This document shows, one piece after another, positions 1-45,000 of a stretch of 64,000 nucleotides of DNA (positions are counted from its first letter, which is position 1; each line of letters opens with the position of its first letter). Source of the DNA: Octopus vulgaris (lineage: Eukaryota); the NCBI GenBank assembly GCA_951406725.2, contig OX597825.1, positions 76,446,001 to 76,510,000 of the forward strand, given 5' to 3'. Made by a program: the position numbers.

Positions 1-3000
1 ACTTTAGCATTTTCTAGAAAGTGCAGTTGAAGCAAAACAGTATATCTTCAGTAGTGAATACAGTTCTATATTTAAGAGATGAGGAATTATGTACATTATT
101 TACATTTGATGGATATTTGTCCTTATCTTGTTTGTTGTTAACACGTATCAGCTGATATACCCTCCAAGCCTTCATCAGGTGTCTTGGGGAAATTTCGAAC
201 CTGGGTTCTCATTCCTCAGGTATTTTTTGATGTTGTTGTTGTTGTTGTTGTCATTATTCAGGTCACTGCCTGGAATCAAACTCGGAATATTGGGGTTAGT
301 AGCCTGTGCTCTTAACCACTATGAAATATAGTTATAGAAATTACATATATTGATGGAAAAAAATATATATACCATTTATACAAACAGAAATCATTTTATA
401 TTTATGATACCATAATGTAATGTAGGGAAAAAATTTAAGTATTTCCTCGAAAGTGCAGCTGTCATAGTGGTTAAGAGTATGGCGACTAACCCCAAGATTC
501 TGAGTTCGATTCCAGGCAGTGACCTGAATAATAATAATAAAAATAATAATAATAGCATTGAAAAATACCTTAGGAATGATAACCCAGGTTCGAAATTTCT
601 CCAAGACACCTGATGAAGGCTGGAGGGTATATCAGCCAAAACGTGTTAACAACAAACAAGATGAGGACAAATATACATAATGTAAATAATGTTCAGTAGT
701 GAAGAATGAAGAATCTGAACATTCAAACTTTGTTTATTTACAGTTGGTTTATTCATAATAATTGTCTGACCTATGTTTCAATTGCATTAATTGCATGTTG
801 TAATTCAAATATCAAACCTATTTCAACAGTATATTGAAATTATTACTGAATTAATAATGCTTTATATTGTGTTGCTTCACTGTTTTATACTCAATCTACA
901 CTAAGGAATTCCAGTGGTAGATACAGCAACATCTGTGTAATATCAGGTACATTTTCAAACCCCAAGACAAAGAGAAAAAATAGACAAAAAAGGAAAACCA
1001 AAATAAGAAGTACAAAAGCATACAAAGAAGAATTGTGCAACAAGGGACTACACAATTAATTCCATGTAGTCACAACAGAAGTTGCTGGAAAAAATAGGTA
1101 GGATTGCCTGAAGAAAAGAACACTAAAAAAAGAGACTGAGAGTACTGTACTGGCAGCACAAGACCAAGCTTTGGCCATGAACTGGAATGAGCAAGTGTCT
1201 CTGTTGTGTTGCATCTGTAATAGACTGGATGAAACCATTACCCATATCACAAACGTATGCCATAGACTTGCGCAAAACCACTACAAGTTGTGGGGACATG
1301 ATCAGGTAGTGAAAGAGCTGCATTGGAAACTGTGCAAAAAGTGGGGGCTAGTGAGAGGCAAGATGTGATATGAGTACAAACTGCAGAGAGTGGCAGTGTC
1401 GGGGACTTGCAAAATTCTCTGGGATTACCCAATCCAAATATATCAGGTGCTAGAGAATAACAGACTGGGCCTAGTGGTGGTCGTTAAGAGGCACTACATG
1501 TGCTATATAGTTGGTGTTGCATGCTCCTTTGTCCCATGAATAATCAAGATGGAAGGTGAAAAAATAGATGGCTAGAATAATCAGGAAAGTATTAGATAAC
1601 TGAAAAGAATGGATAGCATGGTACAGTAGACTGCAGGTTGCAAGCCTGCTATGCATGCAGAACTCCAGGAGTTCAAACACAACCTGTGATGAAAAGAAAT
1701 GATGATGATGATGATAATAATAATAATATCAACAACAATTAGATTCTGTCTTGATAATGATTTCTTTATTAATCACAAGGAATTTACATTGAGTGTGTGT
1801 GTGTGTATGTGTGTGTGTGTGTGTGTGTGTGTGTGTGTGTGTGTGTGTGCATATACTAATGGTTTCAAATTCTGGCTTAAGGCCTGTAATTTTAGGAGGT
1901 GAGGCTTGTATGATTTCATCAACCTTAGTGTTCAAATGATTTAATTCCATTGAGCCTGGAAAGATAAAGAGCAAGGCCATATCATACTGGGATTGCCTTT
2001 GCCTGTCTTTTTAATGTGCATAGAGTACTATGTGTCAAGTGTCAAAGTTATCACTGAGCAATGCGAGATGAAATATGTTGCTTAAAAACAATATGCACCA
2101 TCTAGTAGAGGGATTGAAACTATGATCACTAAGTTGTGAATGCAACACCCTAACCACAAAGCCATACACCCCAGTAGCAATAAAAATAATGATGCTAATA
2201 ATGATAATAATAATAGATTGATTTTAAAAAATACAATTTATTTTTTTAAATGGTTTTATACTAAGATTTTTTGTAAGTTAAAAATAATGAGAAATTATTC
2301 CATATATTATTTTGAAATTATTCATTATGGGGTATATTTTTCAAATTTTCTGGGTGATGATGTCACTGTCTAAAAAAGTAAGATACAGTTTCTGAAATTT
2401 AAAAAAATCATGCCAAACTACCAAGCATTAAAATTTTATCTTAATATATATTTGTCAGGTTATGTGTTGAGTTGTTCAATACGAGGATTATCAACAAGGT
2501 GAGGAGTTCTTTTTATGCAAGTTCTTCATATATATGGATTTCTAGATCTGAATAGAATGGTTGTTGTGTGGGTTTATTGATGTAAACTGAACTGGGATTT
2601 TTCATATGGCAATATCCATCTTCAACAAGATCTTGAGATTTAAGCTGTGAAGATGGTAATTCTTGATTGCGTTTGCTGATACAAACTGGAGTAGTATTTT
2701 GCATGGAGTAATAATGATTTTCATTTACATCTTGAAGTTTTGATGTGTTACCTCTGTTTACACTGTTTCTGAACACTTTCTTTCTGCAATAGACAATACA
2801 TACATACATATATATATATATCCACACACACACACACACAGAGAGAGGCACACAGACACACATTTATATAAATAGATAGATTGATAGATATATAGATAGG
2901 TAGATAGGTATATAGATAGATATAGATAGTCAATTCAAATAAATGATTAATATTAAAAATTAACAATAACAGATAAGAAGACATACTCAGGGAATGTATT

Positions 3001-42000: not shown

Positions 42001-45000
42001 GAGAAAGGTACTGTTTGTTTTTAGGATTTGTACCATCCTTATTTACAAATATTTTCTAGTTTATCTGCACTTTATTTATATCCTCCTCCTCCTCATCATC
42101 ATCATCATCGTTTAATGTCTGTTTTCCATGCTGGCATGGGTTGGACAGTTTGACTGAGGTTTGGAATGCCAGCAGCTGTACCAAGCTCCAATCTGATCTG
42201 GTAATGTTTCTACAGCTAGATGCTCTTCCTAACGCCAACCAATCCGAGAGTGTAGCGGGTGCTTTTTACATGCCACTGGCACAGGAGCCACTCAGGTGAG
42301 CCTGGCATTGATTACATTTGGATAGCGCTTTTTACATGCTGCCAGCAAGCTAGCATCAGTCACATTTGGATGGTGCTTTTTACATGCCAGCAGCATGGAA
42401 GCCAGTCAGGCAGCCCTGGCATTGATCATATATGGATGGTGCTTTTTACGTGCCACTTGAATGGGAGCCAGTCAGGGGGCACTGGCATCGACTATGTTTG
42501 GAGGATGCATTTTATATGCCACCAGAACAGAAGCCAGTCAGGAAGCATTGGCCATAGTTATGATTTGGGTTTTACTTGACTCAACAGGTCTTCTCAAGCA
42601 TCTAGGGTACTTTTAAAACATAACTTCTTTACGATTCACTAAGGCGGGTCTTTTTTCTTCAAAGCTTGGTTCAAATGCTCTAATTGCTGACAGTAGACTT
42701 GAACATTGATTGTTGCATTAGACGGTAACAATTCAAAGTGAAATACTCCTTTGCAATCCCACCAGATAGAGAGAAGAACCTTTTTCCTATGAAGTTCCCT
42801 TCTTGGCTGTGGTTGAGCTTTTTCCCTTTTACCAAGCCGCTGTTTACGACATTTAACATTTCGATAGAAGATCCATTTTTCGTCACCAGTCACAAGTCTA
42901 TCCAAAAAGGGTGAAATGAGTTCACGAGAATGGAGAAGAGCAGATGTCAAGATTTGTGGTTGCTTTTGGGCAATTCATGAGGCATCCATTTTCCAAGTTT
43001 AGGAACCTTTCCAAGTTGTTAAAGATAACGATGAATAGTTGTATGGTTTAAACTAAGCTTTATTGCCAATTCTTCAACTGATAATCAGGATTTTCTTCAA
43101 GTAATGCCTCAAAGAGCATATCATCAAACTCAACTGGATGTCCTCTATTCGATCTTCATTTTCAAGGCTGAAATCTCCACTTCTGAATTTTGCAAACCAT
43201 CTTCTGCAAGTTCTTTCATTCAAGCATTCTTTCCCATAAACTGAGTGTATGTTTCGAGTCACTTCGGCTGCAGAGTTTCCTGTTTTTATACTCATAAAGC
43301 ATTATGTGCCTCAAATGTTCTTTGGATACTTCCATATTAGAAAGGGTTTTAATCAAAAAAATTTTAATTCTATTATCCTGTAAAATAATATTTAATTAGT
43401 TTAAATGTACACAAATGCATAAAAATATATTTAAATTCCATTAAACATTCTAAAATGCTGTTAAATTTAATTCAATTTTAAAAAAGGTAAAATTAGGAGA
43501 GAACTTATGGGGTGACCTGATACAATAGAAACTGACCTGGAAACAAATTTCTTGATCATACACAGCCATACTCAGTGATTTCACAAACAAATAATAAAAA
43601 TAACAACAAGAACTTACTTGCAAAATTAAGACAAATGAAAACCAAAATACTCCAACAGGAAAGAAATAACATGGTGGTATATGGAATGAAGTGGATCTTC
43701 TTGACAATTTTTATATCAACTATTCTTAGAGATGAGCATTATCAGTTTCCTTATTTTTATCGTATTTACAAACTGTAAAGATAAAAAGAGATAGAGTCCT
43801 TTGTCAGTTGATATAATACCAAATGTTTTTTTATAATTCTTGACACTTCAAATGATTTTGTGTTTATAGGGGAACAAAAAAAAATTGAAAGCTTGTAGGA
43901 AATGTGAGGTTCTATTAAAATATTTGTTCAATTCTTTCTAAGTGCCATGTCTGTTCTATGCATTGATCATATCCTAACCTCTGTGTTTTAACCGAACCTC
44001 AATGTTCTAATTGAGCATGTTGGTAGAGCACAGACAGTCTTTCTCCTCTTAGAGTTCCCTCCTATGTTTGCCTGTCTTCTTCCTTATGCTATGTGCTGTA
44101 TCATCACTGTAAGCTGTTGTCTTGTTTCTGCACCATTCCTCAGTACATCTTAAGATATAGACTACATTCCTAATCTTACAGTTAACCTGTGGGTTCATCG
44201 TATGTGTTATACAATTGTTCTCCATACATGAGGACTTATTGAAAGTTATATACTCTACAGATCAGGGATTTCATATTTGTGCTTTATATCCTATAGCAAG
44301 AATATCCTTGAACAAGACACTTCACTCTCCTTGTTTCTCTTTCTTTCCCTCTCTTTCACTTTTTCTCTTTCTGCCTGTCTCTACATGATTTATGCATTCA
44401 AATCTCAATATGAATAATAATCTCAATTTCAATTATACTAAATTAAGGATTTAATGGATATCAAATGAAACACTTATGACTTATTTCATTGTCATCATAT
44501 TGCATGATACTTGTTCTAAGATACTTCACCTTGACACAACACAAGATCATCTTGTATTGTTTCATCGTCATCATGTTCCTTTAACGTCCGTTTTCCATGC
44601 TGGTATGGGTTGGACGGTTTAACTGGAACTGGCAAGCTGATGAGGTGCACCAGATTCCAGTCTAATTTGGCATGGTTTCTAAGGCTGGATGCCCTTCCTA
44701 ACACCAACCACTTTACAGTGTGTGCTGGGTGCTTTTAACTTGGCACTGCATGATATGAATGTATATACATATGTCCGTGTGTATGTGTGTGTGTGTGTGT
44801 GTGCATGAGCATATGTGGGTGTTTAACGTCCGCTTTCCATTCTAGAATGGGTTGGACAGTTCAACTGGGGTCTGGGAAGCCCGAAGGCTGCACCAGGCCA
44901 GTCAGATCTGGCAGTGTTTCTACAGCTGGATGCCCTTCCTAATGCCAACCACTCCGTGAGTGTAGTGGGTGCGTTTTATGTGCCACCGACACAGGTGCCA

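What the first reader, a model, noticed from the sequence alone, without database searches (positions are those of the whole stretch)
2513..43672. Hidden 10-exon type I receptor with three repeated PLAT-like ectodomain modules and a multi-tyrosine tail
Seen: ten minus-strand GT-AG exons (55, 206, 85, 206, 94, 233, 94, 48, 55, 271 nt) join in phase into a 448-aa ORF. It has a signal peptide, three ~100-aa modules, a stalk, a TM helix followed by RKK, and a ~90-aa tail. Each module is a phase 1->0 exon opening with W-x-(V/L/I)-x-(V/L) plus a phase 0->1 exon with two Cys. Six N-glycosylation sequons (NYS, NIS, NKS, NQS, NIS, NES) lie in the ectodomain. Known: phase-1-bounded modules typify shuffled extracellular domains; PLAT/LH2 domains end in W-x-L-x-x-V-x-V...Y-x-F-x-C and are cytosolic in PKD1 and LOXHD1. 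Inference: FWLETVVNL...RYSC and TGEEYGC suggest very divergent PLAT folds used extracellularly on a non-catalytic signalling receptor. I do not recognise this architecture; it may be a lineage-specific immune or sensory receptor.
Basis: partly seen in the sequence, partly recalled or inferred. Interest (0 to 1): 0.85.

Follow-up and report, generated by a model that had tools for sequence, protein, structure and literature searches.

The report
Orphan three-module membrane receptor gene
This is probably a real ten-exon gene for a small cell-surface protein with three repeated beta-rich modules, but its fold and relatives could not be identified, so it is an unproven orphan and not a demonstrated PLAT receptor.

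Summary
The ten minus-strand exons exist exactly as described (43672 to 2513). They are GT-AG bounded and in phase, with no stop in any split codon, and give 448 codons plus TAA. Open AG..GT segments are common here, 115 on the minus strand, so the in-phase chain alone proves little. Independent signals support a real gene. Purine at codon position 1 is 65% in the 8 internal exons, and 0 of 5000 control sets reach that. T-x-W-x-[VLI]-[TE]-[VLI] occurs 3 times in the six-frame window, each at the start of a module. Exons 5 and 7 align in register (5 of 20000 shuffles). The ectodomain shows beta-type hydrophobic alternation (28 of 5000). The PLAT idea found no support. Searched exon by exon, Pfam gave 0 families for 7 of 7 peptides. 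PDB sequence searches, the ESM Atlas and Foldseek on two low-confidence AF2 fragments gave nothing, and no Ig or FN3 match either. Tail tyrosine content (6.7%) equals that of non-coding ORFs. No canonical ITAM or ITIM is present. Relatives in other genomes and the joined model stayed unchecked. Verdict: a probable orphan type I membrane glycoprotein of moderate interest.

The parts
43618..43672 (-). Exon 1: ATG in an ACCACC-ATG context. It encodes an 18-aa hydrophobic signal-peptide-like start and ends in phase 1 at a GTAAGT donor.
   Evidence: Mean Kyte-Doolittle 2.19. Donor in the top 1.1% of GT sites.
36831..37036 (-). Exon 2 (206 nt, phase 1->0): first part of module 1. It holds T-S-W-D-V-T-V, two Cys, and sequons NYS and NIS.
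   Evidence: Acceptor in the top 0.76%, donor in the top 0.11%.
33988..34072 (-). Exon 3 (85 nt, phase 0->1): second part of module 1, with two Cys four residues apart. It is the most divergent of the three second exons.
26913..27118 (-). Exon 4 (206 nt, phase 1->0): first part of module 2. It holds T-H-W-N-L-E-V, no Cys, and sequon NKS.
   Evidence: AF2 single-sequence model is all-beta with six strands, pLDDT 58.5.
23100..23193 (-). Exon 5 (94 nt, phase 0->1): second part of module 2, with Y-x-C-x12-C and sequon NQS.
   Evidence: In-register similarity to exon 7: 5 of 20000 shuffles reach it.
18860..19092 (-). Exon 6 (233 nt, phase 1->0): first part of module 3. It holds T-V-W-K-I-E-L, no Cys, and sequon NIS. 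Its donor (GTTAGA) is the weakest.
   Evidence: It lies in a 136-codon open frame. AF2 pLDDT 53.7.
15561..15654 (-). Exon 7 (94 nt, phase 0->1): second part of module 3, with Y-x-C-x12-C.
10989..11036 (-). Exon 8 (48 nt, phase 1->1): short stalk with sequon NES.
9617..9671 (-). Exon 9 (55 nt, phase 1->2): transmembrane helix. The split codon to exon 10 gives R, followed by K-K.
   Evidence: Mean Kyte-Doolittle 3.25, reached by 14 of 4578 control 17-mers.
2513..2783 (-). Exon 10 (271 nt): 89-aa polar tail with Tyr motifs YYSM, YCHM, YINK, YSDL and YEEL, then stop TAA.
   Evidence: No beta periodicity. No Pfam or PDB match.

Best explanation
A genuine 41-kb minus-strand gene whose introns are filled with transposon remains. 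It encodes a 448-aa single-pass type I membrane glycoprotein. The parts are a signal peptide, three tandem modules of about 100 aa each, a short stalk, one TM helix with an R-K-K stop-transfer, and an 89-aa unstructured tail.

Each module is built from a phase 1->0 exon and a phase 0->1 exon. This points to internal duplication of a two-exon unit. The modules are beta-strand rich, but their fold is unassigned.

Shown: the gene structure, the coding signal, the recurring module motif and the topology elements.

Inferred: the protein sits at the cell surface, binds a ligand or counter-receptor through its beta modules, and acts without an enzymatic domain. Its output would run through its tail tyrosines. 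These could be phosphorylated by Src-type kinases and read by SH2 proteins (YxxM, YxN, YxxL), or could act as YxxPhi endocytic signals. That would make it work like a non-catalytic tyrosine-phosphorylated receptor or an adhesion receptor.
For: Exons, phases and the intact ORF.

Splice sites: 8 of 9 acceptors are in the top 0.2-4.2% of 3819 AG sites. Donors are in the top 0.1-16% of 3547 GT sites.

Coding signal, whole model against 134 non-coding ORFs: G at codon position 1 is 21.9% against 9.7% at position 3, and purine at position 1 is 62%. Fractions of control sets reaching these values are 0.002 (G1), 0.003 (R1) and 0.0045 (chi-square).

Coding signal, 8 internal exons against 173 splice-flanked open segments: R1 is 65%, reached by 0 of 5000 control sets. 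G1-G3 is reached by 27 of 5000.

Composition is protein-like: E is 8.8% against 2.5% in controls, with less F, L, I and C.

Repeats: T-x-W-x-[VLI]-[TE]-[VLI] has 3 hits in the six-frame translation of the window, all at the starts of exons 2, 4 and 6. Exons 5 and 7 have the same length and phase and align ungapped, with Y and both Cys in register (5 of 20000 shuffles).

Beta-rich ectodomain: period-2 hydrophobic alternation is reached by 28 of 5000 shuffles, while the tail shows none, 4510 of 5000. AF2 on exon 4 gives six strands and on exon 6 three strands.

Topology: hydrophobic exons 1 and 9 and the RKK, and the ACCACC-ATG start context.

No catalytic or other domain in the tail: Pfam 0 families, PDB 0 hits.

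The NTR concept comes from the start of the abstract of PMC11399299 as shown in the search listing.
Against: No transcript evidence and no homologue from any other genome could be consulted.

Open AG..GT segments are abundant, 115 on the minus strand and 90 on the plus strand. A reader can therefore always chain some of them in phase.

The first exons of the modules are not significantly alike beyond the 7-residue motif. That motif was defined after seeing them.

Exon 3 is unlike exons 5 and 7.

Tail Tyr content (6 of 89) equals that of non-coding ORFs (6.7%). Yxx[LIMV] occurs 4 times in 89 residues against 2.9% per residue in controls, about 2.6 expected. Sequons also occur in the tail. These 'functional' motifs therefore carry little weight.

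The YSDL and YEEL motifs are 4 residues apart, which is too close for a canonical ITAM as I recall its consensus, and no Tyr fits the recalled ITIM pattern.

The AF2 fragment models are low-confidence (pLDDT 58.5 and 53.7).

Intron strand skew gives no sign of transcription.
Confidence: 0.55

Rival explanations
1. The gene is real, and the three modules are very divergent Ig-like or FN3-like beta sandwiches. On this reading it belongs to an ordinary, already described class of three-domain adhesion or recognition receptors, and the lack of hits comes only from searching half-domains.
For: The module size of 97-109 aa, the phase-1 boundaries and the Y-x-C in the second exon of each of modules 2 and 3 resemble Ig-type modules; that consensus is recalled. 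The ectodomain is beta-rich. All searches were exon by exon, which weakens profile matches.
Against: No Ig, I-set, V-set or fn3 Pfam hit for any of the 7 exon peptides at E<=10. Exons 4 and 6 contain no Cys, so the canonical B-F disulfide cannot form in modules 2 and 3. The only Trp that recurs sits 3 residues from the module start. Foldseek gave 0 significant hits.
Confidence: 0.22
2. One reading: the modules are divergent PLAT/LH2 domains, used extracellularly on a signalling receptor.
For: The order of hydrophobic and aromatic patterns in module 2 can be laid over my recalled PLAT consensus: W-x-L-x-V at the start, an I-E-I-E-T-T-G stretch, then F-W-L-E-T-V | V-N-L ... R-Y-S-C. AF2 on exon 4 gives six strands, and two more from exon 5 would make the eight expected of PLAT (the strand number of PLAT is recalled).
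Against: The Pfam PLAT model did not match any of the 7 exon peptides at E<=10. This includes exon 4, which would hold seven of the eight strands. There were no PLAT proteins among the PDB sequence hits or among the top 50 Foldseek rows for either model. The ESM Atlas gave no PLAT lead. Modules 1 and 3 fit the recalled pattern less well.
Confidence: 0.1
3. This is not a gene but a chance chain of open AG..GT segments in AT-rich, repeat-rich DNA, picked so that the phases fit.
For: 115 open candidates on the minus strand and 90 on the plus strand pass the same splice thresholds. There are 133 minus-strand frames of 68 codons or more. There is no homologue, no Pfam family and no transcript evidence.
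Against: Codon-position bias is not seen in control segments: 0 of 5000 for R1, and 0.002-0.0045. The rare 7-residue motif occurs only at the three module starts. Exons 5 and 7 match in register. Beta periodicity is confined to the ectodomain. The signal peptide and TM helix sit where a type I topology needs them.
Confidence: 0.12

Closest known systems
Non-catalytic tyrosine-phosphorylated receptors (immunoreceptor-type; co-receptors with YxxM / YxN tails such as CD28 or DAP10, named from recall)
   Same: Single-pass type I topology, a small beta-rich ectodomain, no enzymatic domain, and a short tail with Tyr motifs: YYSM, YCHM, YINK, YSDL, YEEL. The class is defined by tail tyrosines phosphorylated by Src-family kinases (start of the abstract of PMC11399299).
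   Different: No recognisable Ig domain. No canonical ITAM or ITIM. Tyr content is not above the compositional background. No evidence of phosphorylation or of any SH2 partner.
Three-domain Ig-type adhesion receptors (nectin / nectin-like architecture, recalled)
   Same: Signal peptide, three tandem modules of about 100 aa, TM helix and short tail. Modules are bounded by phase-1 introns.
   Different: No Ig Pfam match exon by exon. Modules 2 and 3 lack the B-strand Cys. PVR / nectin-like 5 appear only as chance-level Foldseek rows (E 0.49, ranks 20-21).
PLAT/LH2 domain repeats (PKD1, LOXHD1; also the C-terminal domain of secreted lipases, recalled)
   Same: Module length of about 100 aa, beta-rich, and a pattern resemblance in module 2.
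   Different: No profile, sequence or fold match in any test run. In the modules' second exons the two Cys are spaced 12 residues apart in modules 2 and 3 and 3 apart in module 1; neither spacing is a PLAT feature that I know of.

Membership tests
PLAT/LH2 (PF01477) | Significant match to the family profile | tested here: not met
   hmmscan of 7 exon peptides against Pfam-A at E<=10 gave 0 families for 7 of 7. Caveats: exon by exon only, and HMMER filters hide most matches above E of about 0.1.
PLAT/LH2 (PF01477) | Eight-stranded beta-sandwich fold resembling solved PLAT domains | tested here: inconclusive
   AF2 on the exon 4 and exon 6 peptides alone gave pLDDT 58.5 and 53.7. Foldseek against PDB gave 0 of 411 and 0 of 974 hits at E<=0.001, with no PLAT in the 50 listed rows. 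Whole modules were not folded, because the joined step was left out.
Immunoglobulin superfamily (ig, I-set, V-set, C2-set) | Match to an Ig-type profile | tested here: not met
   0 families for 7 of 7 exon peptides, with the same caveats.
Immunoglobulin superfamily (ig, I-set, V-set, C2-set) | Cys in strand B paired with Y-x-C in strand F, and Trp in strand C (recalled hallmark) | tested here: not met
   Exons 4 and 6 have no Cys at all, so modules 2 and 3 cannot form this pair. Module 1 has Cys in both exons and stays open.
Fibronectin type III (fn3) | Match to the fn3 profile | tested here: not met
   no family. Exon by exon only.
ITAM-bearing immunoreceptors | YxxL/I - x(6-8) - YxxL/I in the tail (consensus recalled) | tested here: not met
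   YSDL and YEEL are separated by 4 residues: Tyr at positions 77 and 85 of the exon 10 peptide.
ITIM-bearing inhibitory receptors | [SIVL]-x-Y-x-x-[IVL] (consensus recalled) | tested here: not met
   None of the six tail Tyr fits, read from the tail peptide and the motif list. S-V-Y-I-N-K has K at +3.
Non-catalytic tyrosine-phosphorylated receptors (a functional class) | Type I membrane protein, no catalytic domain, tail tyrosines phosphorylated by Src-family kinases | not testable with these tools
   Topology and the absence of a domain are consistent. Phosphorylation needs an experiment.

The most novel reading that the evidence does not exclude
The three modules represent a so far undescribed extracellular beta-sandwich module of about 100 aa. 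Its marks are T-x-W-x-Phi-[TE]-Phi at the start and Y-x-C-x12-C near the end, and it is always split by a phase-0 intron. It may descend from PLAT. It would define a lineage-restricted family of non-catalytic surface receptors that dock SH2 proteins through YxxM / YxN / YxxL tail motifs.
Probability: 0.15. Interest if true: 0.6.

Novelty: new member of a known kind. Interest (0 to 1): 0.35.

Why it matters
If the gene is expressed, it adds an unannotated, family-less surface receptor to a genome in which such lineage-restricted genes are hard to find by homology. Its modules would be a test case for whether a PLAT-like or a wholly new beta-sandwich has been recruited to the cell surface. As it stands, it is one more orphan single-pass membrane protein prediction. 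The interest lies in the unassigned module, not in the tail motifs, which the base composition explains.

Tried and rejected
1. BLAST of each exon peptide against the window found no second copy or paralogue. The modules do not hit each other (E>2).

2. Smith-Waterman against shuffles: exon pairs 2/4, 2/6, 4/6, 3/5 and 3/7 were not significant (321, 730, 1962, 2082 and 2654 of 3000). Ungapped comparison after the 7-residue motif was also not significant.

3. ESM Atlas: exon 4 scored 0.78 at best and exon 6 0.89 at best, both against unnamed or bacterial clusters. Recognition was 2044 and 1713, below the 2300 mark. This gave no lead.

4. PDB sequence searches: exon 4 gave 0 hits. Exon 2 gave Cas8 at E 0.067 and a kinetochore protein at 0.46. 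Exon 6 gave two hits at E 1.6. Profile A1 gave three hits at E>=0.095. Profile A3 gave 0 and the tail gave 0. I take all as chance.

5. A fourth 'W-N-V-T-V' frame at 12901-12782 (minus, in intron 7) looked like a decayed module. It is in the wrong phase and is flanked on both sides by segments of a LINE-like interspersed repeat, D6 at 12633-12832 and D8 at 13022-13244. I rejected it.

6. Strand skew of the introns as a sign of transcription: 0.014 inside the gene against 0.027 outside. This is uninformative.

7. ORF length alone: 133 minus-strand frames of 68 codons or more. This does not discriminate.

That question is untested.

9. Rfam at gathering thresholds and a tRNA scan of the window gave 0 and 0.

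10. Full-text searches found no description of such a receptor. The terms were 'PLAT domain'+extracellular+mollusc (4 papers, none relevant by title or abstract), cephalopod+'immunoglobulin superfamily'+ITAM (1 review), and octopus+'taxonomically restricted genes'+transmembrane (7 papers hold the terms, 5 listed). I saw the listings only.

11. Not done. Supplements were closed and none was consulted.

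
Full report
**What is there**

The window has no N and is AT-rich, 28-47% G+C in 4-kb blocks. On the minus strand the ten exons of the finding lie at these coordinates:
- 43672-43618
- 37036-36831
- 34072-33988
- 27118-26913
- 23193-23100
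- 19092-18860
- 15654-15561
- 11036-10989
- 9671-9617
- 2783-2513

Every intron begins GT and ends AG. The nine donors are five GTAAGT and one each of GTGAGT, GTAAGA, GTAATT, GTAAAA and GTTAGA. Every acceptor follows a long pyrimidine tract. The six codons split by introns read I, W, N, K, V and R. With 442 whole codons they give 448 residues and a TAA stop. The ATG sits in an ACCACC-ATG context, which resembles the recalled Kozak consensus.

The phases are as claimed. The signal-peptide exon ends in phase 1. Each module is a 1->0 exon followed by a 0->1 exon. The stalk exon is 1->1, the TM exon is 1->2, and the last exon supplies the tail.

**Is it more than chance?**

Splice-site strength is high. 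Eight of nine acceptors are in the top 0.2-4.2% of 3819 AG sites; exon 10 is at 11.6%. Donors are in the top 0.1-16% of 3547 GT sites.

This does not discriminate, however. At the same thresholds 115 open AG..GT segments exist on the minus strand and 90 on the plus strand. Long open frames are also common because of transposons and simple repeats. An in-phase chain could therefore be picked by chance.

Four independent observations argue that this chain is coding.

(i) Codon-position bias.
- Over the whole model, G is 21.9% at position 1 and 9.7% at position 3, and purine at position 1 is 62%.
- Against 134 AT-rich non-coding ORFs of the window, the fractions of resampled sets reaching these values are 0.002 (G1), 0.003 (R1) and 0.0045 (chi-square).
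- Against 173 splice-flanked open segments, 0 of 5000 sets reach the 65% purine of the eight internal exons. 27 of 5000 reach their G1-G3 difference. G1 alone did not differ, 3344 of 5000.
- G1 exceeds G3 in 8 of 10 exons.

(ii) Composition. The model is richer in E (8.8% against 2.5%), K and N, and poorer in F, L, I and C, than the control ORFs.

(iii) Recurrence.
- The pattern T-x-W-x-[VLI]-[TE]-[VLI] occurs three times in the six-frame translation of all 64 kb. All three are in frame at the head of exons 2, 4 and 6.
- The pattern was defined after seeing them, so only its rarity elsewhere is informative.
- The looser W-x-[VLI]-[TE]-[VLI] has 7 hits, three of them these.
- Exons 5 and 7 have the same length and phase. 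They align without gaps, with the Tyr and both Cys in register: 5 of 20000 shuffles for the in-register score, and 29 of 3000 for a local alignment.

(iv) Beta periodicity. The ectodomain exons show period-2 hydrophobic alternation, typical of beta strands (28 of 5000 shuffles). The tail shows none, 4510 of 5000.

I put the chance that this is a real protein-coding gene at about 0.85. I put the chance that all ten exons are exactly right somewhat lower.

**Limits of the 'three repeated modules'**

Beyond the seven-residue opening motif, exons 2, 4 and 6 are not significantly alike. Exon 3 is unlike exons 5 and 7. The repeat is supported by exon structure, by the motif and by one exon pair, not by overall sequence similarity.

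**What the protein looks like**

- Exon 1 gives an 18-residue hydrophobic start (mean Kyte-Doolittle 2.19).
- Exon 9 gives a 17-residue hydrophobic stretch (3.25; 14 of 4578 control 17-mers reach it). It is followed by R-K-K.
- The modules are 97, 100 and 109 residues long.
- Each second exon has two Cys. The first exons of modules 2 and 3 have none.
Two more lie in the tail. In this Asn-rich sequence their number carries little weight: 1.9% of positions in the ectodomain, 2.2% in the tail, 0.8% in control ORFs.
- The tail holds six Tyr, in YYSM, YSMQ, YCHM, YINK, YSDL and YEEL.
- Its Tyr content (6 of 89) equals that of non-coding ORFs (6.7%). Yxx[LIMV] occurs 4 times against about 2.6 expected. 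'Multi-tyrosine' is therefore what the base composition gives.
- By the recalled consensus patterns there is no canonical ITAM, because only four residues separate YSDL from YEEL. There is also no ITIM.

**Fold and family**

The spliced 448-residue model and the joined two-exon modules were neither searched nor folded. That step was left out.

- Pfam: 0 families for 7 of 7 exon peptides of 20 residues or more at E<=10.
- PDB sequence searches with exons 2, 4, 6 and 10 and with profiles of exons 2/4/6 and 5/7: only chance-level hits, best E 0.067, none PLAT, Ig or FN3.
- ESM Atlas on exons 4 and 6: best scores 0.78 and 0.89, to unnamed or bacterial clusters, with recognition below the mark.
- AlphaFold2 on single exon peptides: an all-beta six-strand model for exon 4 (pLDDT 58.5, pTM 0.46) and three long strands for exon 6 (pLDDT 53.7).
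- Foldseek of these models against PDB: 0 of 411 and 0 of 974 hits at E<=0.001.

The PLAT assignment thus has no support from any test. It is not excluded either, because half-domains are poor queries. The same holds for a very divergent Ig or FN3 fold. The canonical Ig disulfide is impossible in modules 2 and 3.

**Surroundings**

The introns are full of mobile-element remains.

Intron 1 holds a decayed LTR retroelement on the minus strand.
- Its LTR-like direct repeats are at 37260-37385 and 41144-41269, 87% alike.
- It has aspartyl-protease, RNase H-type (RVT_3), DUF7047 and weak integrase pieces between 37732 and 40361.

Intron 1 also holds a mariner-type transposase fragment at 42639-42974 (E 2.5e-26).

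Intron 3 holds a LINE reverse transcriptase at 27716-28276 on the plus strand (RVT_1, E 1.3e-27). It belongs to an interspersed family with further copies in introns 2, 6 and 7 and upstream of the gene.

Outside the gene lie an IS1595/ISXO2-type DDE transposase ORF (58219-59184, E 7.7e-16) and a second mariner piece (61927-62589). Long TA microsatellites are also present.

None of the ten exon peptides found a second copy in the window. No Rfam family and no tRNA was found.

**How it most likely works**

Shown: gene structure, coding signal and topology elements.

Inferred: a glycosylated surface protein presents three beta-sandwich-like modules to a ligand or a counter-receptor. It has no enzymatic domain. 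Output would have to run through the 89-residue tail. One route is tyrosine phosphorylation by Src-type kinases and SH2 docking; the recalled preferences are YxxM for PI3K p85, YxN for Grb2 and YEEx/YxxL for Src- or Syk-type SH2 domains. The other route is YxxPhi sorting signals and endocytosis. This is the logic of the non-catalytic tyrosine-phosphorylated receptors (start of the abstract of PMC11399299, seen in the listing). I hold the signalling reading at roughly 0.3-0.4 given a real gene, and adhesion or endocytic roles are the alternatives.

**Novelty**

With the large protein collections closed and the joined model unsearched, I cannot say whether relatives exist or whether the gene is already annotated. 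Full-text searches (listings only) turned up no such receptor.

I file it as a new member of a known kind: a single-pass type I glycoprotein with tandem beta modules and a short Tyr-bearing tail. There is a 0.15 chance that its module is a new or PLAT-derived extracellular domain. Interest: 0.35.

Noticed in passing
window 37260-41269 (minus), inside intron 1: A decayed LTR retroelement. Direct repeats at 37260-37385 and 41144-41269 are 87% alike. Between them, in several frames, lie aspartyl-protease pieces (39981-40361), RVT_3/RNase H plus DUF7047 (38551-39219) and a weak integrase core (37732-38505).
   Followed up: partly
window 42639-42974 (minus) and 61927-62589 (plus): Two mariner-type transposase fragments (Pfam Transposase_1, E 2.5e-26 and 3e-10). 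The first lies in intron 1.
   Followed up: partly
window 58219-59184 (minus): A 321-codon open frame with an ISXO2/IS1595-type DDE transposase domain (E 7.7e-16). In animals this would point to a Merlin-type DNA transposon (recalled).
   Followed up: no
window 27716-28276 (plus); related copies 12311-13244, 16503-17476, 28042-29078, inverted 35216-36219 and 45274-45875: A LINE-type reverse transcriptase (RVT_1, E 1.3e-27) belonging to an interspersed repeat family with at least five partial copies, 60-91% alike. Next to it is an ORF with a sub-threshold PHD-finger-like match (28277-29068, E 9.7e-5).
   Followed up: partly
window 17584-17823, 42353-42552, 52643-52839: Short tandem arrays of 64-66-nt units, 3-3.6 copies and 70-76% matches, that resemble each other. 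They may be part of a SINE-like or satellite element.
   Followed up: no
window 12901-12782 (minus), intron 7: A 40-codon open frame behind a good acceptor that contains W-N-V-T-V, like the module-opening motif. It is in the wrong phase for a module exon. It is flanked by segments of the LINE-like repeat (12633-12832 and 13022-13244). I take it as chance and not as a decayed fourth module.
   Followed up: yes
window 62810-63954; also 5040-5374, 8002-8341, 47134-47315, 48247-48434: Very long TA / TATC microsatellites, up to 572 TA units. They make all six frames open and inflate the ORF lists.
   Followed up: no
window about 19580-21670 (minus), intron 5: Lys/Glu-rich open frames with Cys-x2-Cys knuckle-like strings, seen by eye in the translations, that look like retroelement gag remains. 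Pfam scans of three ORFs in this stretch found nothing (19607-19969; 20941-21381 minus and 21136-21621 plus).
   Followed up: partly
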